The translations under genes were made by a program, and so were the position numbers. From the IMG/VR virus record IMGVR_UViG_2740892270_000008: a stretch of 26,692 nucleotides of DNA, one strand, 5' to 3'. The DNA comes from a virus. Taxonomy: Duplodnaviria; Heunggongvirae; Uroviricota; Caudoviricetes. The notes beneath the pieces are model-generated. The model saw only the letters and a list, made by a program, of their open reading frames with translations, was not told the DNA's origin and did not search any database. Shown here in pieces: positions 1,717 through 23,808 of the stretch. Each line of letters starts with the position of its first letter. Position 1 is the first letter of the stretch.

Positions 1717-3804
1717 ATGTTTGCTTCAGTTAAAGAACTGGTTGGATTACCGGGGATGCCGGGAACGGAGCAAGGCGTTCGCTATTCAATCAGGAAGTAT
1801 GCAACCAGCGAAACCAGCAGACGCCGCAAGAAAGGCGCTAAAGGTTTTGAATACAGCATTGACTGTTTACCTGAAGTGACACAGCAGGCATTACGCGAAC
1901 GTTATGCCCTGCAACTGATGACGCAAAAAGCCGATGAATCACCGGCTCCGGTGGTGACAAAGGCCAGACGCTCGTCTGCCGTGGTTGATGCGGTGGAGGC
2001 ATATCGCGGATCACCACAACTGATGGTCGAACGCCTCAATGCCCTGACTGAAAACCAGCGCCAGGTGGCAGACGCACGCATTGCGATCGTCAGTGAGGTG
2101 CTGAAATTCACGCAACAACCCGGTTTCAGCTGCGCTAAAGCTATCCGGTTCCTCGTTAACAGCCTGGCACGATCACAACTGGACGAGCGCATTGTGGCAA
2201 TGGTTGAGACGGCGAACGCCAAAAAGGGAAACAGCCGCGCGTTGAGTGAAATCACGCTGAAACGCTGGATTGCGGCCTTTAACAAGGCACAGAACGCCGC
2301 TGAACGCCTGCTTTTACTGGCACCGGGTAAACGCCAGGAAATAAAAGCCGAAGATATTAACTGGCTGCCCGAATTTCTGGCGCAGTATCGCCAGTCAAAC
2401 GGCCGACCAATGACCGAGGCTTACGAGGATTTTGTTGCTGAATGGCAGCACCGGCACGCTGATGAGCCTTATATGCTCGATATCATGCCCTCTTATGACA
2501 CCATTCGCCGCGCAATGAAGAAACTGCCGGAAGTGGTGAAACAAAAAGGCCGGGTAACTGGCAGTGAATACCGTCAGCTTGAGGGATTCACGCGCCGCGA
2601 CTGGTCCAGAATGCCGGTGAATTATGTCTGGATTGGTGACGGTCACGGCATGAAGCTGAAATGCGCGCACCCGGTTCACGGGCGGCCATTCGCACCGGAA
2701 GTGACCTTTGTTATCGACGGTGGCACGCGCTTTGTGGTGGGCTGGAGCCTTGACCTGGCTGAAAATGTTTTCGCCGTAGCCGGTGCCATACAGCACGGTA
2801 TTCGCCATCATGGCAAACCGTTTCTGTATTACTCGGATAATGGCTCCGGGGAAACCGCCGACGTCCTGGATAAGGAGATTGTGGGGATACTGCCACGACT
2901 GGGGATTAATCACCCGACAGGGATTGCCGGTAATCCGCAGGGACGGGGCATTATCGAACGGCTTAACCGCACATTACCGATGCGCATAGCCCGTAAATAC
3001 CGCACCTATTTCGGGAAAGGAGCAGATCGCGAGACGTTACGTAAAACCAACCGCGATTTACGCTCGGCATTCAGTGCCCTGCAACAGGGCAAACGGCTGA
3101 ACGCCCGGCAGCAGTCAGCGATGCGTGATTTACCGTCCTGGTCTGAACTGATTGATGCCATTCGTGACGGTGTTGAGTGGTACAACAACCGGCCGCACGA
3201 TGAATTACCCATGAAGCCGAACGGTAAACATTACAGCCCGGCGGAGTTCAGAAAAAAACGCCTGGCGGAAGAGGACACGGAAATTGAATGGCTGTCCGAT
3301 GTTGAACTGCGGGATATGTTCCGGCCGATGGTGGAGCGCCCTGTAAGACGCTGTGAAATACGCTGGCTGAATAATATTTACTACGCGCCCGAGCTGCGTG
3401 ACGAGCATGGCCGTAAGGTACTTATCAGCTATGACATTCATGATGCCGAACGAATTACCGTGCGCCGCCCGGATGGCAGCGTGATTTGCGAGGCGGTATG
3501 GGACGGCAATAAACGCGAAGCCTTCCCTGTCAGCGCGGAATACTACAAACAGCAGCAGCGCCTTAAAGGCATGCGTAAACGCGCAGAGGAAAAAATCCGT
3601 GATGCCGAGGATGAGGTTGTCAACGTGCTGGAGCACAAGCCGCAGGAGCCCTGGCTGGAAAACATATACCGCCCTGTGGGTAATACGGTGACCGTTCAGC
3701 AACCGGTCGCTGACGATGAACCTGATGAAGAATACGAGCGTAATTTCCAGCGGGGATTGCAACTGCTCGAAGCGAAATTAAAAGAAAGTGATCCGCTGGC
3801 CTGA
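1717..3804 (+). CDS. Mu A-like DDE transposase
   Basis: 695 aa following ner; DDE core region VWIGDGHGMKLKCAHPVHGRPFAPEVTFVIDGGTRFVVGW and ...YYSDNGSGE...; size and position as MuA. Confidence 0.9.
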   Translation: MFASVKELVGLPGMPGTEQGVRYSIRKYATSETSRRRKKGAKGFEYSIDCLPEVTQQALRERYALQLMTQKADESPAPVVTKARRSSAVVDAVEAYRGSPQLMVERLNALTENQRQVADARIAIVSEVLKFTQQPGFSCAKAIRFLVNSLARSQLDERIVAMVETANAKKGNSRALSEITLKRWIAAFNKAQNAAERLLLLAPGKRQEIKAEDINWLPEFLAQYRQSNGRPMTEAYEDFVAEWQHRHADEPYMLDIMPSYDTIRRAMKKLPEVVKQKGRVTGSEYRQLEGFTRRDWSRMPVNYVWIGDGHGMKLKCAHPVHGRPFAPEVTFVIDGGTRFVVGWSLDLAENVFAVAGAIQHGIRHHGKPFLYYSDNGSGETADVLDKEIVGILPRLGINHPTGIAGNPQGRGIIERLNRTLPMRIARKYRTYFGKGADRETLRKTNRDLRSAFSALQQGKRLNARQQSAMRDLPSWSELIDAIRDGVEWYNNRPHDELPMKPNGKHYSPAEFRKKRLAEEDTEIEWLSDVELRDMFRPMVERPVRRCEIRWLNNIYYAPELRDEHGRKVLISYDIHDAERITVRRPDGSVICEAVWDGNKREAFPVSAEYYKQQQRLKGMRKRAEEKIRDAEDEVVNVLEHKPQEPWLENIYRPVGNTVTVQQPVADDEPDEEYERNFQRGLQLLEAKLKESDPLA

Positions 3805-3886
3805 AATAAAAAAATAACCCGAGGGGTGACTCAGGTTATTTGAGGTTTCAGTCTCGGAGAATGCTGTCTCAAGCGAGGTGAATAAT

Positions 3887-4646
3887 ATGACCGATATTAA
3901 CGATGTAATCAAGACCATTGATGAACTTATTGATGGCGGCGTACTGACGCAGTATGCCATCGCCAGAGAGGCGGGAATTTCCGACGGCACATTATCGGCT
4001 TTCCGTAAGGGAAAATATAAAGGCGATAACGCTGCTGTGGCTGCTTCCCTGCGCTCCTGGTATGAGAACTGGAATAAACAAAGCGCACTGCCGGAACCGC
4101 CGCAGTTTGTGGAAACTCAGACAGTCCAGGAGCTGCGCGCACTGTTTCAGGCGGTTCGCCTGATGGGCTGTATTAACGTTATTGTGGGCGTACCGGGTGT
4201 GGGTAAAACGGCCACTGCCCGTAATTACTGCCAGGAGCAACCAAACACCTGGATGATCACCCTGTCACCCGCGCACTCCAGCGTCACGGAGTGTCTGCTG
4301 GAGCTGGCCGATGCGCTGGGGATTGATTACACCCGCGCGAACAAAGGGGCATTATCCCGCGCCATCCGCCGTCGCCTGATGGGAACGCGTGGACTGGTGA
4401 TTGTGGATGAGGCGGATCATCTTGGTATTGACGGTCTGGAGCAACTCCGGGCAATTCAGGACGCCACGGGGATCGGGATGGTGCTTATTGGTAACCCGCG
4501 CGGATTGTTTAAAGGTGGACGCCGCGCCTTTGATGATTTATCGCGCCTGTTCAGCCGTCTTGCCCGTACAAAACAACTTCGCAAGGCCAAAAAGGCGGAT
4601 GTGCTGGCCATTGCCATGGCGTGGGGGATCAGTGGTGAGGCCGCGG
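3887..4646 (+). CDS. Mu B-like transposition ATPase (C-terminus inside N-masked block)
   Basis: Walker A GVPGVGKT and Walker B LVIVDEADHL; likely ATG 3887 with SD GAGGTG 6 nt upstream (track start 3878 is GTG); ORF runs into masked block 4647-4901 so the true stop is unknown. Confidence 0.85.
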
Positions 4647-4958
4647 NNNNNNNNNNNNNNNNNNNNNNNNNNNNNNNNNNNNNNNNNNNNNNNNNNNNNN
4701 NNNNNNNNNNNNNNNNNNNNNNNNNNNNNNNNNNNNNNNNNNNNNNNNNNNNNNNNNNNNNNNNNNNNNNNNNNNNNNNNNNNNNNNNNNNNNNNNNNNN
4801 NNNNNNNNNNNNNNNNNNNNNNNNNNNNNNNNNNNNNNNNNNNNNNNNNNNNNNNNNNNNNNNNNNNNNNNNNNNNNNNNNNNNNNNNNNNNNNNNNNNN
4901 NTACAGCGGAATATGCCGTTCTGTTGGTGCGAAACAAGTCAGCTAAATGAGGTGTTAT

Positions 4959-9701: not shown

Positions 9702-9972
9702 NNNNNNNNNNNNNNNNNNNNNNNNNNNNNNNNNNNNNNNNNNNNNNNNNNNNNNNNNNNNNNNNNNNNNNNNNNNNNNNNNNNNNNNNNNNNNNNNNNN
9801 NNNNNNNNNNNNNNNNNNNNNNNNNNNNNNNNNNNNNNNNNNNNNNNNNNNNNNNNNNNNNNNNNNNNNNNNNNNNNNNNNNNNNNNNNNNNNNNNNNNN
9901 NNNNNNNNNNNNNNNNNNNNNNNNNNNNNNNNNNNNNNNNNNNNNNNNNNNNNATGATGACCGGAGGCGGGT

Positions 9973-10224: not shown

Positions 10225-10405
10225 NNNNNNNNNNNNNNNNNNNNNNNNNNNNNNNNNNNNNNNNNNNNNNNNNNNNNNNNNNNNNNNNNNNNNNNNNNNN
10301 NNNNNNNNNNNNNNNNNNNNNNNNNNNNNNNNNNNNNNNNNNNNNNNNNNNNNNNNNNNNNNNNNNNNNNNNNNNNNNNNNNNNNNNNNNNNNNNNNNNN
10401 NNNNN

Positions 10406-11358: not shown

Positions 11359-11560
11359 ATGGCTGGCTGACTGCCTGGTCCCTCCCGCGCCGCAGCCGTT
11401 CACGTTTGGTGCATCGGTCACTTACAACCTGCAACTGCTGGCGGTGATTAAAAACTGCAACGTGGACAAGGCCAGCATCCGCCGTCTGGAGACACAGCGA
11501 CAGCATGAATTTACTGATATGGCCGGAACGACTGCTGTTCCGGCAGGAAAGACGAAGTAA
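11189..11560 (+). CDS. o-spanin (Rz1-like outer-membrane lipoprotein), overlapped architecture
   Basis: +1 frame relative to i-spanin; hydrophobic LLPLCLCLMMW followed by lipobox LTGC; proline-rich mature part (KPVPIPAEW..PPAPQP); extends past i-spanin stop. Confidence 0.6.
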   Translation: MKNSRTCSTARNSRALSAGHWQRCLLPLCLCLMMWLTGCGGPSVKYVPVKPVPIPAEWLADCLVPPAPQPFTFGASVTYNLQLLAVIKNCNVDKASIRRLETQRQHEFTDMAGTTAVPAGKTK

Positions 11561-11570
11561 GGAAAAAGGT

Positions 11571-11798
11571 ATGGATGATTCAGATTGTGCTCAGGCAGTC
11601 ATGGAGCGTGCAACAGAACGCGCCCTTTGTGACCGGCTGACACGTAAGCGCCGGGTGGCGGAGACACCGGGCAGGCGTGTATGCGCGGACTGCGGGGGTG
11701 ACATTCCGGCTGCCCGTCTGGTTGCCGTGCCGGATGCCATCCGTTGTGTGAACTGCCAGAACATCATGGAGGCCGGTCATGTGGGTCAGCATCGTTAA
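11571..11798 (+). CDS. TraR/DksA-family C4 zinc-finger protein
   Basis: 75 aa from ATG 11571 (SD AGGAAAAAGG); CADCGGDIPAARL...IRCVNCQ zinc-finger typical of phage TraR-like proteins. Confidence 0.7.
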   Translation: MDDSDCAQAVMERATERALCDRLTRKRRVAETPGRRVCADCGGDIPAARLVAVPDAIRCVNCQNIMEAGHVGQHR

Positions 11799-12090
11799 AG
11801 ATTATGTCGTGCCGATCCTGTCGGCAACGGCCACAGCCGGGGGGATCTTCATGGCGCTGATGCGCAAAACCTTTGTCCCCCGCGAGGCCTTTGAAAAACT
11901 CTCCGACCGGGTTGAGCGGGTGGAGAGCCGGATTTCCGGCCTGCCCACGCAGCAGGAGGTGAACAGACTCAATATCGAAATCACCACCCTGCGCGGTGAG
12001 CTTAAGGCCACCAATGCCACCCTGAAATCCGTCTCCCATCAGAACGAACTGCTGCTGGAGCAGGCTGTAAGGAAAAAACACAATGAGTGA
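11779..12090 (+). CDS. Small membrane/coiled-coil protein; candidate releasin-like lysis factor by position
   Basis: 103 aa; single N-terminal TM (VVPILSATATAGGIFMALM) then coiled coil; occupies the slot between lysis genes and gp27-like, where Mu encodes gp25 (inference). Confidence 0.4.
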   Translation: MWVSIVKDYVVPILSATATAGGIFMALMRKTFVPREAFEKLSDRVERVESRISGLPTQQEVNRLNIEITTLRGELKATNATLKSVSHQNELLLEQAVRKKHNE

Positions 12091-12373
12091 TTTCATTACT
12101 GAAGATCAGCGTCTTGTCATTCTGCGGTCGCTGGCGGATTACAACGGCGAACTGGGCGAATCCGTGCTTCAGGACTGCCTGGATGATTACGGTCACCGCG
12201 TGTCCCGCGACACCGTTCATACCCACATTGCCTGGCTTGCCGAGCAGGGACTGGTGCGTAAGCGCACGCTTGTTAACGGTTATTTCATCGCTGAACTGAC
12301 CGGCCGGGGTCAGGATGTGGCGGAAGGCCGCGCCACCGTTCCGGGTGTGAAGAAACCACGCGCAAGGGGGTAA
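12083..12373 (+). CDS. Hypothetical protein (possible winged-helix), Mu gp26 position
   Basis: 96-aa ORF, coupled to neighbours (ATGA overlap upstream; SD AGGGGG for next gene downstream). Confidence 0.45.
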   Translation: MSDFITEDQRLVILRSLADYNGELGESVLQDCLDDYGHRVSRDTVHTHIAWLAEQGLVRKRTLVNGYFIAELTGRGQDVAEGRATVPGVKKPRARG

Positions 12374-12375
12374 CG

Positions 12376-12957
12376 ATGGATAAGCCAGCGCGTGGCCGTG
12401 TACGCAAGGTGGATTTGCTCCCCGACAGCATCCGTAAGCCGCTGCTGGAAATGCTGCGTGAAAAACGTCTGACGCAGGTCCAGATCCGCGAGGAAATCAA
12501 CCGTCTGATCCGTGAAGCAGGTCTGCCGGAAGAGCAGCAGCTCTCACCGGCGGCCATCAGCCGGGAAGCCTCCCGTAATGAGCTGATTGCCCGTAATCTG
12601 CGTGATTTACGCGAGCAGACAAAAGCCATGATGGCCGAACTGGGGGATAAGCCGACCGGTGAAACCACGGCACTGATTCTGGAGATGTCCCGTGCCCTGA
12701 TGTACCGCCGTCTGCGTGCCGCCACCGAATCCCTGAACAGCGACAGCGATGTGGATATGCGCCTTATTAAGGACATCCTCCTGTCGGCACAGCGTGCAGA
12801 AAGTGCCGCCGAGCGCAGCATTAAGCGTGAAAAAGAAATCCGGGCCGCATTTGCTGAAGAGATGGCGAATGCGGTCACCGATGAGTTGCGCGGCGTGGAT
12901 GGCATGAGCGAGCAGATCGAATTCCGTATCAGGCAGATGCTGCTGGGTAAGGCGTAG
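12376..12957 (+). CDS. Mu gp27-like protein (putative terminase small subunit / DNA-binding packaging protein)
   Basis: 193 aa, helical, basic N-terminus, immediately upstream of large terminase as in Mu; family assignment by position and composition. Confidence 0.55.
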   Translation: MDKPARGRVRKVDLLPDSIRKPLLEMLREKRLTQVQIREEINRLIREAGLPEEQQLSPAAISREASRNELIARNLRDLREQTKAMMAELGDKPTGETTALILEMSRALMYRRLRAATESLNSDSDVDMRLIKDILLSAQRAESAAERSIKREKEIRAAFAEEMANAVTDELRGVDGMSEQIEFRIRQMLLGKA

Positions 12958-12967
12958 GAGGTGAATC

Positions 12968-13216
12968 ATGGCAACAGATAACCGCTCACTGATGAGCAGT
13001 GCCCATCAGAAAGCATTCAGTCTTGCAACACAGTTACCTCCTGAAACCATAAAGGTATGTCGTGAGTTGACTGAACTCAGCATTGCCGGGGAAATATCCC
13101 TGGAACAACTGCATTCGCTGCTGGCAGAGGCTGCCACTGATGAGTTGAGCGGCGTGGACGTGATGACTGAAGAGCTTGAGTCCCGAATCAAAAGCATTCT
13201 GACAGGTAAAGCATGA
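12968..13216 (+). CDS. Small protein duplicating the C-terminal module of the gp27-like protein
   Basis: 82 aa, strong SD AGGAGG; C-terminus ATDELSGVDVMTEELESRIKSILTGKA parallels upstream protein C-terminus AVTDELRGVDGMSEQIEFRIRQMLLGKA; stop overlaps TerL start. Confidence 0.5.
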   Translation: MATDNRSLMSSAHQKAFSLATQLPPETIKVCRELTELSIAGEISLEQLHSLLAEAATDELSGVDVMTEELESRIKSILTGKA

Positions 13217-14880
13217 TGAACAAAGCCAGAGAAACGTCGCCTTCACTGATGCAAATGACGCCTCCCCGCAAAATTGATCTGTCAGGTGAAAAAGCCCTGC
13301 TGGGCGTGGATGTGCCGGACAGCCTTGATTTGCCCGGTGATATGCCGGTGTTTCTGGATTATCAGGCCCGCTGGTTTGCAGATGAAAGTCAGGTCTGCAT
13401 CGCGGAGAAATCCCGCCGCACCGGTCTTACCTGGGCGGAAGCCGGGCGTAACGTCATTACTGCTGCAAAACCGAAGCGTCGTGGTGGCCGCAATGTGTTT
13501 TATGTGGGATCAAAGCAGGAGATGGCGCTGGAATATATTTCTGCCTGCGCGCTGTTCTCCCGTGCCTTTAACCAGCTGGCAGATGCTGATGTGTATGAGC
13601 AGACATTCTGGGATCGGGATAAAAAAGAAGAAATTTTGACCTACATGATCCGCTTTCCGAACAGTGGATTCAAAATTCAGGCATTGTCTTCCCGTCCGTC
13701 AAACCTGCGCGGCCTTCAGGGGGATGTGGTGATTGATGAAGCCGCGTTCCACGAGTCACTGGATGAGCTTCTCAAGGCGGCAATGGCGCTCACTATGTGG
13801 GGCGCGCGCGTGCGTATTATCTCCACGCATAACGGCGTCGATAATCTGTTTAATCAGTACATTCAGGAAGCCCGCGAGGGGCGCAAGGATTACAGCGTCC
13901 ACCGCATAACCCTGGATGATGCCATTGCGGACGGGCTGTACCGTCGTATCTGTTACGTCACCGATCAGGAATGGTCACCGGAAAGCGAGCAGAAATGGCG
14001 TGATGATCTCTACAAAAACGCCCCGACCCGTGAGGATGCCGACGAGGAATACGGCTGTATCCCGAAAAAATCCGGCGGTGCCTATATCCCCCACGCGCTT
14101 ATTGAAATGGCGATGATCCGCGACATCCCGATTCTGACGTTTGAAGCCCCGGACAACTTCATCAGCCGTGCCGCATGGCTGCGTGAATCGGAAGTTTTAA
14201 CCTGGTGTGAAGAACATTTAAAACCGCTTTTAGAGAAATTAAATCCCCGTTCCCGCTTCAGCTTCGGGGAAGACTTTGCCCGCACCGGTGACCTGTCCTG
14301 CTTTGTGCTGCTGGAAATCACCGAATCCCTGGCAAAGCGCGAGGTGTTTCGCGTGGAGCTGCGCAACCTGCCGTATGCCCAGCAGGAACAGGTGATGATG
14401 TACATCCTGACCCGCGTTCCGGCGCTGGTCGGTGCGGCGTTCGACGCCACCGGTAACGGCGGCTATCTGGCAGAGGCCGCACTGCTGGCCTTTGGCCCGG
14501 ACATCATCGACTGCGTGATGTTGTCGCCGAAGTGGTACGGCGAGTGGATGCCAAAACTGAAAGCCGAGTTTGAAGATCAGAATATCCTCGTCGCCCGCCA
14601 TCAGACCACGCTTGATGATTTGCGCCATGTGAAGGTAGTGAATGGTATCCCGCAAATCGACAAGGGGCGCACGAAGGACCAGAACGCAACGGCTGCGAAC
14701 GCCCGCCGCCATGGTGATTTTGCCGTGGCGCTCTGTATGGCAAACCGGGCGTCATACATGGAGGGCTTCATCCTGGATGAATCAGCCTGTCAGGCGCTAC
14801 AGGAGCGGTCGCGGGCAATGGAGGGCGGTTATCGTGATGACGATGAGGCATATCATGAATTTGATCGGGGGGGCTGGTAG
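13213..14880 (+). CDS. Terminase large subunit (Mu gp28-like)
   Basis: 555 aa; ATPase-like VVIDEAAFHE (Walker B) and C-terminal nuclease region; position before portal. Confidence 0.85.
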   Translation: MMNKARETSPSLMQMTPPRKIDLSGEKALLGVDVPDSLDLPGDMPVFLDYQARWFADESQVCIAEKSRRTGLTWAEAGRNVITAAKPKRRGGRNVFYVGSKQEMALEYISACALFSRAFNQLADADVYEQTFWDRDKKEEILTYMIRFPNSGFKIQALSSRPSNLRGLQGDVVIDEAAFHESLDELLKAAMALTMWGARVRIISTHNGVDNLFNQYIQEAREGRKDYSVHRITLDDAIADGLYRRICYVTDQEWSPESEQKWRDDLYKNAPTREDADEEYGCIPKKSGGAYIPHALIEMAMIRDIPILTFEAPDNFISRAAWLRESEVLTWCEEHLKPLLEKLNPRSRFSFGEDFARTGDLSCFVLLEITESLAKREVFRVELRNLPYAQQEQVMMYILTRVPALVGAAFDATGNGGYLAEAALLAFGPDIIDCVMLSPKWYGEWMPKLKAEFEDQNILVARHQTTLDDLRHVKVVNGIPQIDKGRTKDQNATAANARRHGDFAVALCMANRASYMEGFILDESACQALQERSRAMEGGYRDDDEAYHEFDRGGW

Positions 14881-16306
14881 TGGGACGCATCATTGATACT
14901 GACGGAAAACCTTTCTCCTTTGACCCGGAGATGCAGAGTGCCGCGCTGGATATTCCGCAGATTGCCAGCCGTTATATTGAACATCCGGCTTCGGGTATCA
15001 CCCCGAACCGGGCGGCGCAGTGCCTTCGCGGGGCTGAACGTGGCGATCTGATTGCCCAGTCCGATCTGGCCGCTGATATTGAAGAAAAGGACACCCACCT
15101 TTTTGCGGAGCTGGGCAAGCGACGTCTTGCCATTCAGGGGGTGCCATGGAGTATTGAGCCGCCACCGAACGCCAGCGCGAATGAGAAAAAGGACGCGGAA
15201 ATGCTCGACGAATATCTGCATTCCGCAGACTGGTTTGATGCCATGCTGTTTGACGCCACGGATGCCATCCTGAAGGGCTATTCCTGCATGGAAATTGAGC
15301 ACGGGATGCTCGGTAAAATGCACATCATCCGCGCCATCCGCTGGCGTGACAGCGGGCATTTCTGCCTTAACCCGGATGATTTGAGCGAACTGCGGCTGCG
15401 TGACGGCAGCCATGCCGGGGTGGCGTTTCAGCCCTTTGGCTGGATAGTGCATCAGTCGCGTTCACGCACCGGCTACGGTGGTGCGACGGGGCTTGTCAGA
15501 ACGCTTATCTGGCCGTTCATTTTCAAAAACTATTCCGTGCGCGATCTGGCGGAATTTCTGGAGGTGTACGGCCTGCCAATGAAGGTCGGGAAATACCCGT
15601 CCGGGGCAACACCGGAGCAGAAAAGTGCCCTGATGCGGGCGGTGATGGATATCGGGCGACGTACAGGCGGGATCATCCCGGCCGGGATGTCGCTGGAGTT
15701 TCAGGCGGCAGCGAACGGTCAGGCCGATCCGTTTGAAACCATGATTTCGTGGGGTGAGCGTTCCATCTCCAAAGCAATACTCGGCGGCACGCTGACCACA
15801 GAAGCCGGAGACAAAGGCGCGCGCTCGCTGGGTGAGGTGCATAACGAGGTGCGCCGGGAAATCAGGGATTCTGATTTACGCCAGCTGGCTGCAACCCTGA
15901 ACCGCGATCTGGTGTATCCGCTGTATGCCCTGAACACCGCCCACGCCATTGATATCCGTCGCCTGCCGCGTATCTGTTTCCAGACCAAAGAACCGGGGGA
16001 TATCACCAAAATAGCCAGTGCGGTGATGCAACTCAGTGCGGGGATGGATATTCCTGATCCCTGGGTACGGGATCAGACCGGTATTCCACAGCCCACGCCC
16101 GGTGAAGCCATATTCCGTGTCCGTCAGAGCAGTAATGAACCGGCCATGCCTGACAGGGAAACGCTACCGGAAAAACAGGAAAAGACAGAACAGACGGCGC
16201 TTTCAGCCCGACTGCCGGAAGCGAAAAACACGCCGCGTGATGAACTGGACGACATGGGGGACGCGGTGCCTGCCCGCCGCTTACAGGAGGCCATCGATCC
16301 GGTGCT
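14880..16306 (+). CDS. Portal protein (Mu gp29-like, DUF935 family); C-terminus inside N-masked block
   Basis: GTG start overlapping TerL stop (TAGTG); 475 visible aa; track fuses it with F across the mask into a 969-aa ORF, which is an artefact of X translation. Confidence 0.8.
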
Positions 16307-16556
16307 NNNNNNNNNNNNNNNNNNNNNNNNNNNNNNNNNNNNNNNNNNNNNNNNNNNNNNNNNNNNNNNNNNNNNNNNNNNNNNNNNNNNNNNNNNNNNN
16401 NNNNNNNNNNNNNNNNNNNNNNNNNNNNNNNNNNNNNNNNNNNNNNNNNNNNNNNNNNNNNNNNNNNNNNNNNNNNNNNNNNNNNNNNNNNNNNNNNNNN
16501 NNNNNNNNNNNNNNNNNNNNNNNNNNNNNNNNNNNNNNNNNNNNNNNNNNNNNNNN

Positions 16557-17789
16557 TTCGAAACAGACGCGGATGTTCATGCCCGCTCATTCACGGCAGC
16601 AAAAACGGCACGGCTGGATGTGGTAACCACATTACAGGCCGAAGTGCAGCGGGCCATTGATGAGGGGATTTCACAGAAAGAATTTATCCGCACACTGACG
16701 CCACGCCTGCAAAAGCTGGGATGGTGGGGAAAGCAGATTGTGGTGGACAGCGACGGTAACGCGGAAGAAGTGCAGCAGGGCAGTCCCCGTCGTCTGGCGC
16801 TGATTTACAACGTGAACACCCGTGTGGCTTACAATGCCGGGCGTTACACGCAGATGATGAACAACACGGACACGCATCCGTTCTGGCAGTATGTGGCGGT
16901 CATGGACAGCCGTACCCGCCCGTCGCATTCCGCCCTTAACGGTCTGGTATTCCGCTATGACGATCCGTTCTGGAAAACACACTACCCGCCCAATGGCTGG
17001 AACTGCCGCTGCCGTGTGCGGCCATTGTCTCAGGCCCGTCTGGATGCAATGGGGTTATCCGTTTCATCCGGTGAGGATCATCTCTCCACCCGCAATGTTG
17101 AGGCTGGCGTGGATAAACAGACCGGAGAAGTCAGAGAAATGCCGGTGACCACATATTCAGATGGCGCCAGAACCATGACACCGGATGTGGGCTGGTCATA
17201 TAACCCCGGCTCGGCAGCGTTCGGCACAGACCAGGCGCTGATCCGCAAACTGATCGAGGTGAAAAGCCCGGCGTTACGGGAAATGGTGGTTCAGGAGATG
17301 AACAACAGCCCGGAGCGGCAGCTGGCGTTCCGCATCTGGGCAAAAAACATCATGCAGACCCGGCGAGGTGGTAACGATATCCGCACGCTGGGCTTTATGA
17401 CTGAAAGCATTGCGCAGGCAGTGGAAAGCCGGACGGGAACGCCACCGGCCCGCCTGCTGGCGATGAGCGGTAAAAATGTGCTCCATGCGGACAGTGTGAA
17501 ACATCAGAATGACGGCATCGCTCTGACGCCGGAGGACTTCGGGCGCTTACCGGCAATGCTGGCAAGGCCAAAAGCGGTACTGTGGGACAAACGGCACAAC
17601 AATCTGATGTATATCGTGGAAAATCAGGATGGCAGTGTGCAGATTGCCGTTAATGCACCGTACAGTCTGAAACGTCAGCCCGACAAACTGGATGTGATTG
17701 TGAATGCTTACCGGGTTATCAATATGGATAAGCTGAAATCGGATATCCGGGGCGGAATGCTTGAGGTGCTGGAAGGACAAATTGATTAA
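16557..17789 (+). CDS. Head morphogenesis protein F (MuF family); N-terminus inside N-masked block
   Basis: MuF-domain core ...IYNVNTRVAYNAGRYTQMMN...FWQYVAVMDSRTRPSHSALNGLVF...NGWNCRCRVRP; about 250 aa of C-terminal sequence follows the core. Confidence 0.8.
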   Translation, partial: FETDADVHARSFTAAKTARLDVVTTLQAEVQRAIDEGISQKEFIRTLTPRLQKLGWWGKQIVVDSDGNAEEVQQGSPRRLALIYNVNTRVAYNAGRYTQMMNNTDTHPFWQYVAVMDSRTRPSHSALNGLVFRYDDPFWKTHYPPNGWNCRCRVRPLSQARLDAMGLSVSSGEDHLSTRNVEAGVDKQTGEVREMPVTTYSDGARTMTPDVGWSYNPGSAAFGTDQALIRKLIEVKSPALREMVVQEMNNSPERQLAFRIWAKNIMQTRRGGNDIRTLGFMTESIAQAVESRTGTPPARLLAMSGKNVLHADSVKHQNDGIALTPEDFGRLPAMLARPKAVLWDKRHNNLMYIVENQDGSVQIAVNAPYSLKRQPDKLDVIVNAYRVINMDKLKSDIRGGMLEVLEGQID

Positions 17790-17910: not shown

Positions 17911-18381
17911 ATGTCATCCATTGATGCAGCTGTCGTTGTTGACGTTACGCGTCTCCAGCGAGTGTTTGCCCGGCTTCAGTTTGTGGGCGGCGGAAAAGAC
18001 CTGGCCCGCNNNNNNNNNNNNNNNNNNNNNNNNNNNNNNNNNNNNNNNNNNNNNNNNNNNNNNNNNNNNNNNNNNNNNNNNNNNNNNNNNNNNNNNNNNN
18101 NNNNNNNNNNNNNNNNNNNNNNNNNNNNNNNNNNNNNNNNNNNNNNNNNNNNNNNNNNNNNNNNNNNNNNNNNNNNNNNNNNNNNNNNNNNNNNNNNNNN
18201 NNNNNNNNNNNNNNNNNNNNNNNNNNNNNNNNNNNNNNNNNNNNNNNNNNNNNNNNNNNGTATGCCACCGGGACCGGCGGCCATTGGCGCACGTCCGTAT
18301 ATGGGCTTTGATCAGGTGGCAGAACAGGAGATCATGGACGAAATCAGAAAACGCTTTAAAAAGGCCACAGAAACGCCGTAA
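17911..18381 (+). CDS. Virion morphogenesis protein G-like (Mu gp31-like); middle masked
   Basis: ORF stays in frame across the 249-nt mask (83 codons), giving 156 aa, which matches the size of Mu G as recalled; SD GGAGG upstream. Confidence 0.6.
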   Translation: MSSIDAAVVVDVTRLQRVFARLQFVGGGKDLARXXXXXXXXXXXXXXXXXXXXXXXXXXXXXXXXXXXXXXXXXXXXXXXXXXXXXXXXXXXXXXXXXXXXXXXXXXXXXXXXXXXXMPPGPAAIGARPYMGFDQVAEQEIMDEIRKRFKKATETP

Positions 18382-22300: not shown

Positions 22301-23808
22301 TGATTAACTTTGATTATATCGGCGATAACAATCGCATTCCGCTGGTACAGATTGAAATCAATAATTCAATGGCCGTGACCGGCACTCCACCACAGCGTCA
22401 GGCGGTACTGTTGTTTGGTCAGGCTGCAATGAAAGACACTACCATTCAGGGGCGCGGTCAGCTTGATGTACCAGTACGTATTACCCGAGCTTCACAAGCA
22501 AGAGAACTCTGGGGGCGAGGTTCCATGATTGCACTGATGGTAGAGGAATTTATCGCCATTAACCCTGACACAGAGTTATATGCCATTGCACAGGGGGCTG
22601 GAACAGGTCAGTCCAGGGCATGCGTGATGAATATCATTGGAACAGCATTGGCAGACGGGGTGTTAAGTGTTTACATCGGCGGTCGCCGTTACCTCCTGCC
22701 CGTCAGTAAGGGGAAAAAAGGTAAAGAGCTTGTGGAAGAGCTGGCTAAGGTCATTAACGCTGACACTGATGCGCCATTCACTGCTATCGCAGCTGAAGTC
22801 AGTGGTGATAATGCTGAAGGACTTAAAGGCAGCATGGGGGTTAACGCCCGCTTTATCGGTGAATGCTCAGCTCATGATTTACGGGTGAACTATTATGACG
22901 GTGAAACTACACCGGCCGGTCTTACGCTGGAGCTCGTCGCGCCAACACAGAAGGCAACAAACCCCGATATCACCCGTAGCGTCTCAGGGATGGGGAATCG
23001 TCAGTACAACTACATCGTCATGCCCTATAAGGATGCGGCAAATCTCAAAATTCTGGCGGATGAACTGCTGAAACGCTGGGGACCGGTAAAAATGTCGGAC
23101 GGTATGGTCTGGATGGCGCATACCGGCACCTTCGGTACGGCAACCAGTTTTGGTGAATCCCGTAATGACTTCCTGTTTACCTGCACTTCTATTCCTAAAG
23201 CACCAGAGCCGGATTATGTCTGGGCTGCCTCCATTTGTGCGGTCTGTGCGCCCTCCCTGTCAACGGATCCGGCCCGACCATTACAGANNNNNNNNNNNNN
23301 NNNNNNNNNNNNNNNNNNNNNNNNNNNNNNNNNNNNNNNNNNNNNNNNNNNNNNNNNNNNNNNNNNNNNNNNNNNNNNNNNNNNNNNNNNNNNNNNNNNN
23401 NNNNNNNNNNNNNNNNNNNNNNNNNNNNNNNNNNNNNNNNNNNNNNNNNNNNNNNNNNNNNNNNNNNNNNNNNNNNNNNNNNNNNNNNNNNNNNNNNNNN
23501 NNNNNNNNNNNNNNNNNNNNNNNNNNNNNNNNNNNNNGCAGCGTTTTCCGCGCCATAAACTGGCTGATGACGGGACGCCCGTTCGTGCCGGTCAGAATAT
23601 CGTGACACCGGAGATCATGAAACTTCAGTTAATTTCGCTGGGGGAAGAATGGGTGGATCTGGGACTGGTCGAAAATCTGGACACCTTTAAAAAGAATCTG
23701 CTCGTGGAGCGCAACACAAAAGACCGTAACCGTCTGGATGTGATGTGTACACCGGATCTGGTTAACCAGTTCCGCTTCATGGCCGCGCAGATCCGTTTCA
23801 TTTTGTGA
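22300..23808 (+). CDS. Contractile tail sheath protein L (middle masked)
   Basis: 502-aa frame continuous across mask 23288-23537; position before tail tube; size near Mu L. Confidence 0.8.
   Translation: MINFDYIGDNNRIPLVQIEINNSMAVTGTPPQRQAVLLFGQAAMKDTTIQGRGQLDVPVRITRASQARELWGRGSMIALMVEEFIAINPDTELYAIAQGAGTGQSRACVMNIIGTALADGVLSVYIGGRRYLLPVSKGKKGKELVEELAKVINADTDAPFTAIAAEVSGDNAEGLKGSMGVNARFIGECSAHDLRVNYYDGETTPAGLTLELVAPTQKATNPDITRSVSGMGNRQYNYIVMPYKDAANLKILADELLKRWGPVKMSDGMVWMAHTGTFGTATSFGESRNDFLFTCTSIPKAPEPDYVWAASICAVCAPSLSTDPARPLQXXXXXXXXXXXXXXXXXXXXXXXXXXXXXXXXXXXXXXXXXXXXXXXXXXXXXXXXXXXXXXXXXXXXXXXXXXXXXXXXXXXXQRFPRHKLADDGTPVRAGQNIVTPEIMKLQLISLGEEWVDLGLVENLDTFKKNLLVERNTKDRNRLDVMCTPDLVNQFRFMAAQIRFIL

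What the first reader, a model, noticed from the sequence alone, without database searches (positions are those of the whole stretch)
12376..13216. Small ORF duplicating the C-terminal module of the gp27-like (TerS-like) protein
The 82-aa ORF 12968..13216 ends ...TDELSGVDVMTEELESRIKSILTGKA, paralleling the upstream 193-aa protein's ...TDELRGVDGMSEQIEFRIRQMLLGKA. It has a strong SD and its stop overlaps the TerL start. A duplicated terminase-interaction tail could modulate packaging or compete for TerL binding.
Basis: seen in the sequence. Interest (0 to 1): 0.5.

Follow-up and report, generated by a model that had tools for sequence, protein, structure and literature searches.

The report
Chimeric small gene with leftover terminase tail
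The 82-codon gene between the small and large terminase genes of this E. coli Mu-like prophage is a recombination chimera: a small accessory-protein domain fused to the leftover last 30-odd codons of another phage's small-terminase gene. That tail now evolves almost freely, so it looks like a scar, not a new packaging regulator.

Summary
Small ORF 12968-13216 ends with 31 residues that are 58% identical to the C-terminus of gp27 (12376-12957); BLASTP E=3e-10. It has a perfect Shine-Dalgarno sequence, and its stop overlaps the TerL start (TGATG).

It is not a duplication made within this genome. Residues 1-47 belong to a small, narrowly distributed family of 56-71 aa proteins. These sit directly after the small-terminase gene in several Mu-like phage lineages and normally have no such tail. 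Bases 13109-13216 are the 3' end of a different gp27 allele, still joined to its own TerL start. Relatives show the other states of this slot: no insert, an untailed 67-aa gene, a 9-codon mini-ORF, and a three-gene cassette. The gp27-TerL junction is therefore a recombination hotspot.

The tailed form occurs in 25 of 230 complete E. coli genomes that carry this prophage type, and in one cluster among 1.84 billion representative proteins.

Selection on the tail is nearly absent: pN/pS is 0.56 against 0.02 for the same module in gp27. Three positions conserved across enterobacterial gp27 tails are changed.

Best reading: a recombination scar kept open as a translated bridge to TerL. A role competing for TerL is neither supported nor excluded. 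Interest is low to moderate.

The parts
12376..12957 (+). gp27, the Mu-type small terminase candidate (193 aa)
   Evidence: Pfam PF11985 E=3e-33. PHROG 426 'terminase small subunit' E=2e-54. Orthologue of Mu_27 / gene D. pN/pS 0.03.
12862..12957 (+). gp27 C-terminal module, 'tail A' (aa 163-193: MANAVTDELRGVDGMSEQIEFRIRQMLLGKA)
   Evidence: BLASTP partner of the small-ORF tail. The low-confidence AF2 model shows the end of a long helix, a break at GVDGMS and a terminal helix at 179-190. The last 13 aa are the only divergent patch relative to the insert-less lineage.
12957..12963 (+). Shine-Dalgarno GGAGGTG of the small ORF
   Evidence: Read from the sequence. Conserved in all alleles, and also in the CI5 mini-ORF and the L098 untailed gene.
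12968..13216 (+). Chimeric small ORF (82 aa); RefSeq WP_000179787.1 'hypothetical protein'; phrog_30922
   Evidence: Nine alleles, pN/pS 0.49. GC 49% and GC3 48%, against 58% and 67% in gp27.
12968..13108 (+). N-terminal domain (aa 1-47), a member of a small family found next to the small-terminase gene (motif LLxSAHxxAF...CR...G.S..TTKxQLxTL)
   Evidence: hhalign of the untailed family profile against the small ORF: probability 98%, E=1.5e-13 over aa 1-47. No relation to gp27: probability 0.1%. 12968-13070 is colinear with the untailed 67-aa gene of L098. The AF2 model gives three helices.
13109..13216 (+). Relic 3' end of a second gp27 allele, 'tail B' (corresponds to gp27 codons ~157-193)
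   Evidence: blastn: 13109-13500 is colinear with the gp27 3' end plus TerL of the insert-less lineage L002. The first 13 nt (12/13 match) are read in a different frame from gp27. A 5-nt gap then restores the gp27 frame.
13213..13218 (+). Stop/start overlap ATGATG (small-ORF TGA 13214-13216; TerL ATG 13216-13218, with an alternative ATG at 13213)
   Evidence: TGATG is present in all 25 locus copies that carry the small ORF. It is the same junction as gp27/TerL in the insert-less lineage.
13216..14880 (+). TerL (Mu gp28 orthologue)
   Evidence: PHROG 2 'terminase large subunit' E=5e-43. Orthologue of Mu_28. pN/pS 0.05. It has only a weak SD (AGGT) of its own.

Best explanation
The small ORF is a chimeric gene made by recombination at the gp27-TerL junction of E. 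coli Mu-like prophages. The donor was a phage of the L098 type, with the order gp27, then a 67-aa accessory gene, then a spacer, then TerL. It recombined with a phage of the insert-less type, in which the gp27 stop overlaps the TerL start. The left crossover lay in homologous gp27 sequence. The right joint fell inside the accessory gene (about codon 47) and inside the resident gp27 (about codon 157). A 5-nt gap puts the relic back in the gp27 reading frame.

The product is a complete donor gp27, followed by the accessory-family domain fused to the resident gp27's last ~35 codons. Those codons still abut their own TerL start. The relic DNA is retained because it carries the TerL translation-initiation region: a weak SD inside the ...GGT AAA GCx codons and the TGATG overlap. 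The ORF is kept open mainly so that ribosomes loaded at its strong SD reach the TerL start, that is, translational coupling.

The amino-acid sequence of the copied tail is no longer under the constraint that gp27 tails experience. It is therefore probably not a conserved TerL-binding element. Any protein-level function would lie in the N-terminal family domain and is unknown.

Shown: the chimeric anatomy, the alternative states of the slot in relatives, the relaxed selection and the conserved overlap. Inferred: the direction and order of events, the coupling role, and loss of TerL binding.
For: Anatomy:
- Window 12376-13070 is colinear with L098, which has an untailed 67-aa gene (92.5% identity).
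- Window 13109-13500 is colinear with L002, that is, gp27 tail plus TerL.
- The untailed family profile matches aa 1-47 (98% probability) and is unrelated to gp27.

Slot variability, from 79 IMG/VR loci plus E. coli loci. The gp27-TerL gap is 0, ~33, ~200, 259, ~270, ~370-430 or ~600-630 nt. The first ORF in most filled slots (about 14 of the 17 inspected) is a member of the same family, always untailed except in the window's cluster.

Rarity: 25 of 230 E. coli genomes. One tailed cluster among 9 hits in 1.84 billion representatives.

Selection:
- pN/pS is 0.03 for gp27, 0.05 for TerL and 0.49 for the small ORF.
- The small-ORF tail is at 0.56 (P=0.12 against neutral) and the gp27 tail at 0.02; Fisher P=2e-5.
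- Tail B deviates at R172S, G176V and L190T, positions conserved in the enterobacterial (...LLGKA-type) gp27 tails, where 172 is R or H and 190 is L, I or M; only the glycine is kept in all 33 distinct tails.

Coupling:
- TGATG is conserved in every allele, and so is the strong SD.
- TerL's own SD is weak.
- In CI5, a deletion derivative keeps only the same SD, ATG and 4 codons. This forms a 9-codon mini-ORF that ends 5 nt after the TerL ATG.

No internal promoter or terminator was found. Prophages with the ORF sit in three different host genes, so the arrangement is compatible with a mobile phage.
Against: - Overall pN/pS of 0.49 is significantly below 1 (P=0.003), so some constraint at protein level exists.
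- All nine full-length alleles are intact and of the same length.
- The tail keeps the helix-break-helix layout of the gp27 tail and 18/31 identities. Residual TerL binding is therefore possible.
- The coupling role is inferred from sequence only. P(no stop under neutrality) is 0.06-0.24, so ORF integrity alone proves little.
- The direction of events is not settled. The insert-less gp27 tail looks like tail A in its first half and tail B in its second half. This is also what a deletion between the two repeats would produce.
Confidence: 0.6

Rival explanations
1. TerL-binding decoy or adaptor. The small protein uses the gp27-like tail to bind TerL. It thereby tunes, delays or redirects packaging, or protects TerL from hijacking by satellites.
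For: - The tail is homologous to the C-terminus of the small terminase.
- In lambda and P22 the TerS C-terminal region binds TerL (PMC9611059).
- It has a strong SD and is co-transcribed and translationally coupled with TerL.
- The predicted flexible linker plus terminal helix resembles the gp27 tail.
- The ORF is intact in all 25 complete genomes (annotated CDS).
- The nonsynonymous changes at conserved positions could reflect retuning, not decay.
Against: - Tail pN/pS of 0.56 is not different from neutral and is about 25-fold above the gp27 tail.
- Three positions conserved in enterobacterial gp27 tails are altered.
- It is present in only ~11% of prophages of this type and absent from Mu, D108 and SfMu.
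- Every other member of the N-terminal family lacks a tail.
- Variants occur near the fusion point in metagenome and Logan assemblies: two in-frame deletions and one frameshift (P0003, P0004, P0010).
- The same gp27 tail works with very different TerL N-terminal leaders, so there is no sign of a tight specificity pair.
Confidence: 0.15
2. Accessory (moron-like) gene whose function lies wholly in the N-terminal three-helix domain, for example anti-defence or host takeover. The tail is a neutral appendage and coupling to TerL is incidental.
For: - The N-terminal domain family recurs directly downstream of the small-terminase gene in divergent Mu-like phages. These include one with a DUF1804-type small terminase.
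- Lower GC and GC3 than the neighbours.
- Accessory ORFs of 34-100 codons at fixed plasticity regions are known in Pseudomonas Mu-like phages, and some are anti-CRISPRs (PMC4378225).
Against: - Within the E. coli cluster the N part shows no clear constraint: pN/pS 0.70 (P=0.17), and codons 18-51 at 1.5 on few events.
- The family's S(W/L)xTTK motif has been shortened by a 4-aa deletion.
- No match in PADLOC, NCBIfam or Pfam, and no fold match.
- No own promoter or terminator.
Confidence: 0.2
3. Simple tandem duplication within this genome, spanning the gp27 3' end (and TerL 5' end), followed by divergence.
For: Two direct copies of the module lie 259 bp apart in the same orientation.
Against: - The sequence between the copies is neither gp27-like nor TerL-like. 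It belongs to an independent gene family.
- A blastn search of window 12940-13125, which covers most of the N part, hits only the 27 genomes that carry the ORF, not the ~230 with the TerL 5' end.
- Tail B is closer to another lineage's gp27 tail than to tail A.
- A parental-type arrangement with an untailed gene exists (L098).
Confidence: 0.05

Closest known systems
C-terminal TerL-binding moiety of small terminases (lambda gpNu1, P22 gp3)
   Same: A short flexible C-terminal segment ending in a helix, at the end of the small-terminase protein and encoded right next to the TerL start. In lambda and P22 this region binds TerL; in P22 the site on TerL was mapped to its first 23 residues (PMC9611059).
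   Different: In the window a second copy of the segment sits on an 82-aa protein. That protein lacks the HTH and the oligomerisation core of a small terminase. The copy evolves nearly neutrally. Binding of Mu gp27 to gp28 through this tail has not been shown in anything I could access.
Regions of genomic plasticity / morons in Mu-like phages (Pseudomonas D3112/B3 group, PMC4378225)
   Same: Short accessory ORFs (34-100 codons) occupy fixed slots between core genes. They are present or absent between close relatives and often have deviant GC. The gp27-TerL slot behaves this way.
   Different: This slot lies between the two terminase genes of enterobacterial Mu-like phages. No own promoter or terminator was found. 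The occupant here is fused to a piece of the neighbouring core gene.
Translationally coupled gene pairs and leader mini-ORFs (stop/start overlaps such as TGATG or ATGA)
   Same: The upstream ORF terminates on the start codon of TerL, which has a weak SD. Three architectures in this lineage keep such an overlap: gp27, the chimeric ORF, and the 9-codon mini-ORF in CI5.
   Different: Coupling is inferred from sequence only. The 'leader' here is an 82-codon chimeric gene with a recognisable domain.
Packaging-interference proteins of phage satellites (SaPI Ppi, PICI Rpp)
   Same: Small proteins that act on terminase subunits to redirect packaging. The comparison rests on my own knowledge of the literature, not on a test here.
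   Different: Those proteins are encoded by satellites and, as I recall, bind the helper phage's small terminase. There is no sequence or fold similarity here. The window's gene lies inside the phage's own late operon.

Membership tests
Phage_Mu_Gp27 / DUF3486 (PF11985), Mu-type small terminase | Match to the family profile over most of its 173 positions | tested here: not met
   The small ORF has no PF11985 hit at E<=0.1. Only aa 52-82 align to gp27. gp27 itself scores E=3e-33 over profile positions 1-173.
Small terminase (TerS) architecture | N-terminal HTH DNA-binding domain plus helical oligomerisation core (PMC9611059) | tested here: not met
   The untailed family profile against the gp27 profile gives hhalign probability 0.1%. 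The AF2 model of the small ORF is a three-helix unit plus linker and helix, with no significant fold match.
Small terminase (TerS) architecture | C-terminal moiety that binds TerL | not testable with these tools
   Homology of the tail is shown. Binding would need biochemistry or complex modelling. Relaxed selection argues against a conserved interaction.
Small family next to the small-terminase gene (phrog_30922 and untailed relatives P0013-P0019) | N-terminal motif LLxSAHxxAF...CR...G.S..TTKxQLxTL in a protein of ~56-71 aa | tested here: met
   hhalign 98%, E=1.5e-13 over aa 1-47. BLASTP against the RM8082 63-aa protein gives E=1e-5. phrog_30922 E=7e-52. The TTK part of the motif is shortened by 4 aa.
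Small family next to the small-terminase gene (phrog_30922 and untailed relatives P0013-P0019) | Position immediately downstream of the small-terminase gene, same strand | tested here: met
   The window has 10 nt between the gp27 stop and the ATG. The position is the same in L004, L015, L016, L049-L051, L059, L061, L069, L071, L098 and L102.
Moron / accessory gene in a plasticity region | Variable presence among close relatives, at a fixed slot | tested here: met
   25 of 230 E. coli genomes. Gap classes from 0 to ~630 nt in 79 loci.
Moron / accessory gene in a plasticity region | Own promoter and terminator, giving autonomous expression | tested here: not met
   No sigma-70-like promoter in 11500-13800, and no plus-strand terminator at the ORF. 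This is a consensus scan only.
Translationally coupled upstream ORF | Stop codon overlapping or adjacent to the downstream start, with a weak downstream SD | tested here: met
   TGATG in all alleles. The TerL upstream sequence acAGGTaaagcatgATG.
Translationally coupled upstream ORF | Downstream translation depends on upstream translation | not testable with these tools
   Needs reporter fusions or nonsense mutants.

The most novel reading that the evidence does not exclude
The chimeric protein is a natural 'TerS-tail decoy'. An abundant small protein carries a diverged TerL-docking tail. It occupies or chaperones TerL before gp27 engages, so it would set the timing or stoichiometry of packaging initiation, or shield TerL from satellites or defences. 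Under this reading, the accelerated amino-acid change at conserved tail positions reflects retuning of affinity, not decay.
Probability: 0.12. Interest if true: 0.6.

Novelty: new member of a known kind. Interest (0 to 1): 0.27.

Why it matters
In itself this is an ordinary product of phage mosaicism. Illegitimate recombination at a gene junction left a piece of a core gene fused to an accessory ORF.

It has three modest uses. First, it marks the gp27-TerL junction as a recombination and insertion hotspot in enterobacterial Mu-like phages, and it defines a small, previously unnamed protein family that recurs directly after the small-terminase gene. Second, it is a natural construct for asking whether the last ~30 residues of Mu gp27 are the TerL-docking element, which has not been shown for Mu. 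Third, it illustrates how the 3' end of one gene can be retained as DNA because it carries the next gene's translation signals. That is a caution against reading duplicated protein modules as functional innovations.

Tried and rejected
(1) Tandem-duplication model, in which the ORF's N part would be a TerL 5' fragment. Rejected. The N part hits only ORF-bearing genomes and belongs to an independent family.

(2) Whole ORF as a diverged C-terminal half of gp27. Rejected by hhalign (probability 0.1%) and by Pfam.

(3) A 'specificity cassette' in which the gp27 tail covaries with the TerL N-terminal leader. Not supported. The same tail pairs with very different leaders.

(4) Function from fold. 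The AF2 model (pLDDT 72) gave no Foldseek match with E<=0.001 in PDB or BFVD.

(5) Defence or annotation libraries. No PADLOC match, no meaningful NCBIfam match and no Pfam match.

(6) Presence in other species. The genome-contig scan (one genome per species) found none. The alignment-based scan failed for lack of conserved columns.

(7) ORF integrity as proof of selection. P(no stop | neutral) is 0.06-0.24, so this is not decisive.

(8) Single-sequence AF2 of gp27 was low confidence (pLDDT 62). I used it only for the secondary-structure layout.

(9) PDB sequence search with gp27 found no solved relative.

(10) I could not settle whether the insert-less lineage is ancestral or a deletion derivative formed between the two tail repeats.

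Full report
**Context**

The window is an E. coli Mu-like prophage. It is 99.9% identical over 12083-13500 to chromosomes such as NZ_CP189662.

Around the finding, the gene order matches the Mu late region:
- lysozyme and spanins;
- a TraR/DksA zinc-finger protein;
- DUF2730 (Mu gp25);
- a winged-helix protein (gp26, 12083-12373);
- gp27 (12376-12957);
- the small ORF (12968-13216);
- TerL (gp28, 13216-14880);
- the portal gene.

gp27 is a bona fide member of PF11985 (E=3e-33) and of PHROG 426 'terminase small subunit'. The curated Mu record calls its orthologue 'terminase small subunit, also known as D'.

**Checking the observation**

The two ORFs exist as described. BLASTP aligns gp27 aa 163-193 with small-ORF aa 52-82 at 18/31 identities without gaps, E=3e-10. 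The similarity is also visible in DNA.

The small ORF has a perfect SD, GGAGGTG, 4 nt upstream of its ATG. Its TGA overlaps the TerL ATG as TGATG.

**Distribution**

- Mu, D108, SfMu and the Yersinia Mu-like phages have no such ORF. In Mu, gp27 ends 7 nt before gp28.
- Among 5,426 complete E. coli genomes, 230 carry this prophage type but only 25 have the small ORF. The rest match it only through the 3' end of their gp27.
- A search of 5.8 billion proteins found only E. coli relatives at 79-94% identity.
- A profile search of 1.84 billion cluster representatives found nine hits. Only the E. coli cluster carries the tail.
- The ORF is already catalogued as phrog_30922, function unknown, and as RefSeq WP_000179787.1.

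**What the N-terminal part is**

A weak DNA hit in strain RM8082 led to a Mu-type prophage with about 600 bp inserted between gp27 and TerL. The first ORF of that insert is a 63-aa protein that resembles small-ORF residues 1-51 (BLASTP E=1e-5).

I then collected 79 IMG/VR loci through gp27 and measured the gp27-TerL gap in each. The gap falls into classes of 0, ~33-48, ~200, 259, ~270, ~370-430 and ~600-630 nt. In most filled slots (about 14 of the 17 inspected) the first ORF belongs to one small family of 56-71 aa, with the motif LLxSAHxxAF...CR...G.S..TTKxQLxTL (alignment). It is sometimes followed by a second small gene (phrog_21398) and by a gene on the opposite strand.

One member lies directly after a DUF1804-type small terminase in a more distant Mu-like phage. 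None of these family members has a gp27-like tail.

A profile of the untailed members matches small-ORF residues 1-47 with 98% probability (E=1.5e-13). The same profile shows no relation to gp27 (probability 0.1%). The small ORF is therefore a complete family domain with roughly 30-35 gp27-derived residues appended.

**Where the tail comes from**

The closest untailed relative is P0015 (67 aa). It sits in a prophage of the same type (L098) with the order gp27, then the 67-aa gene, then 120 nt, then a TerL with a different N-terminal leader.

The blastn comparisons divide the window as follows:
- 12376-13070 (gp27, the intergenic SD, and codons 1-34 of the small ORF) is colinear with L098 at 92.5%.
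- 13109-13500 is colinear with the gp27 3' end plus TerL of the insert-less lineage (L002).
- 13071-13108 is diverged family sequence.

The relic begins with 13 nt that match gp27 at 12/13 positions but are read in a different frame. A 5-nt gap then brings the rest into the gp27 frame.

Three further points fit this origin:
- The copied tail is closer to the insert-less lineage's gp27 tail (71% aa) than to the window's own (58%).
- The small-ORF/TerL junction (GGTAAAGCATGATGAA) matches that lineage's gp27/TerL junction (GGTAAAGCCTGATGAA).
- The window's gp27 differs from the insert-less gp27 almost only in its last 13 residues, which marks a breakpoint near codon 180.

The simplest history is recombination between an L098-like phage and an insert-less phage. 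Some E. coli genomes carry up to four copies of this prophage type, which gives the opportunity.

I could not decide whether the insert-less form is ancestral or is itself a deletion between the two tail repeats. Its tail resembles tail A in the first half and tail B in the second half, as a deletion would predict. The nucleotide pattern is not clean, however.

**Is the tail functional?**

I pooled 9-13 alleles and counted substitutions on minimum spanning trees:

| Region | pN/pS | Note |
|---|---|---|
| gp27 | 0.03 | |
| TerL (first 300 codons) | 0.05 | |
| Small ORF | 0.49 | P=0.003 against neutrality |
| Small ORF, N part | 0.70 | not significant |
| Small ORF, tail | 0.56 | P=0.12 |
| gp27, same module | 0.02 | Fisher P=2e-5 against the small-ORF tail |

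Across 33 distinct gp27 tails, the enterobacterial majority share E-L-[RH]-G-x-D-G-[MI]-S-E..LE..I...L[LIM]GK[AV]. The more distant tails keep only the glycine and the L-G near the end. The copy has S, V and T at the R/H, G and L/I/M positions.

Variants near the fusion point occur in metagenome and Logan assemblies: two in-frame deletions and one frameshift. ORF integrity alone is only weakly informative, because P(no stop | neutral) is 0.06-0.24.

AF2 (pLDDT 72) predicts three helices, a disordered linker at GVDVM and a terminal helix. This is the layout that a low-confidence gp27 model shows at its own C-terminus. No fold or family match suggests a function.

**Why the relic and the open frame persist**

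TerL has only a weak SD (AGGT), and it lies inside the conserved ...G-K-A codons of the gp27-type tail. In the insert-less lineage, TerL starts on the gp27 stop (TGATG).

In the window, the same TGATG is conserved in every allele, but the ORF that ends there now begins at a strong SD. In strain CI5 a deletion removed almost the whole small gene. It kept the SD, the ATG and four codons, which form a 9-codon mini-ORF ending 5 nt after the TerL ATG.

Three architectures therefore keep a translated ORF terminating on the TerL start. I infer that the relic is retained as DNA because it holds TerL's initiation region, and that the frame is kept open for translational coupling. This is an inference, not a demonstration.

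Prophages with the ORF are inserted in three different host genes: a fimbrial usher gene, lateral-flagellar motA, and hsdR. The arrangement is therefore compatible with a mobile phage.

**Comparison with what is known**

In lambda and P22, the C-terminal region of the small terminase binds TerL; in P22 the site on TerL was mapped to its first 23 residues (PMC9611059).

The small ORF fails the tests for being a small terminase. It has no HTH or oligomerisation core and no PF11985 match. The selection data argue against a conserved docking role.

The slot behaves like the 'regions of genomic plasticity' described for Pseudomonas Mu-like phages, which hold 34-100-codon accessory ORFs, some of them anti-CRISPRs (PMC4378225). 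No own promoter or terminator was found here.

**Verdict**

The feature is a chimeric accessory gene that carries a leftover small-terminase 3' end. It is a new member of a known kind, phage mosaic junction products.

A role as a TerL decoy or adaptor remains possible at roughly 10-15% and would be moderately interesting. The decisive experiments are binding assays and three defined mutants, listed under next steps.

Noticed in passing
window 4647-4901, 9702-9953, 10225-10405, 16307-16556, 18010-18259, 23288-23537: Six runs of N of about 180-255 nt mask parts of the window. The apparent 969-aa ORF 14880-17789 is an artefact of one of them. In the near-identical chromosome it is two genes: a DUF935 portal and a 'phage minor head protein'.
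   Followed up: partly
L004 3029-3633 (E. coli RM8082); also L016, L049-L052, L055, L059, L071: A cassette of about 600 bp lies between gp27 and TerL in Mu-type prophages. It holds the small family gene, a ~65-aa gene (phrog_21398), and a 65-89 aa gene on the opposite strand (MKEKLTIDQKIEIA...). In L049, L050 and L059 a larger opposite-strand ORF of 135-162 aa (MSPKAIKLLE...) takes the place of the last two. The opposite-strand gene suggests an autonomously expressed moron. There was no PADLOC, NCBIfam or Pfam match.
   Followed up: partly
L006 2529-2558 (E. coli CI5) and L023: A deletion derivative keeps only the small ORF's SD, ATG and 4 codons. These form a 9-codon mini-ORF overlapping the start of a TerL with a different N-terminal leader (MSKRTGEEK...).
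   Followed up: yes
window 13213-13260 and TerL 5' ends of L002-L097: The first ~16-25 residues of TerL, upstream of the conserved PRKIDL motif, are hypervariable between lineages. The rest of TerL is 70-99% identical. Together with the last ~13 residues of gp27, this forms a divergent patch that straddles the junction.
   Followed up: partly
L102 (metagenome scaffold, ENA ERZ28657563) 2508-4463: A distant Mu-like phage with a DUF1804-type small terminase carries a family member overlapping the terminase stop. Three more small genes follow, one matching Pfam BubE, before TerL and Portal_Mu.
   Followed up: no
P0011 (Logan contig, 80 aa): The first 24 residues of the small ORF are fused to unrelated sequence (…GATVVTVRTTEPALVTLYRATGNSTGW…). 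This is either another rearrangement at this spot or an assembly chimera.
   Followed up: no
L109-L111 (prophage left ends in FORC_069, 102651, M18): Prophages of this type interrupt a fimbrial usher gene, a lateral-flagellar motA and the type I restriction gene hsdR respectively. This is the random-insertion signature of a transposable phage, and one case inactivates a host restriction system.
   Followed up: partly
window 12968; alleles in L010-L014: The commonest allele of the small ORF (P0001 cluster, 79 member sequences) starts with GTG, not ATG, behind the same SD.
   Followed up: no
L028 (IMG/VR contig 3300012089_000017) ~1895-2476: In this metagenomic relative, gp27 appears split by a frameshift or stop (tail reads ...AAISR, then resumes LREQTK...). 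This could be a degraded prophage or a sequencing error.
   Followed up: no
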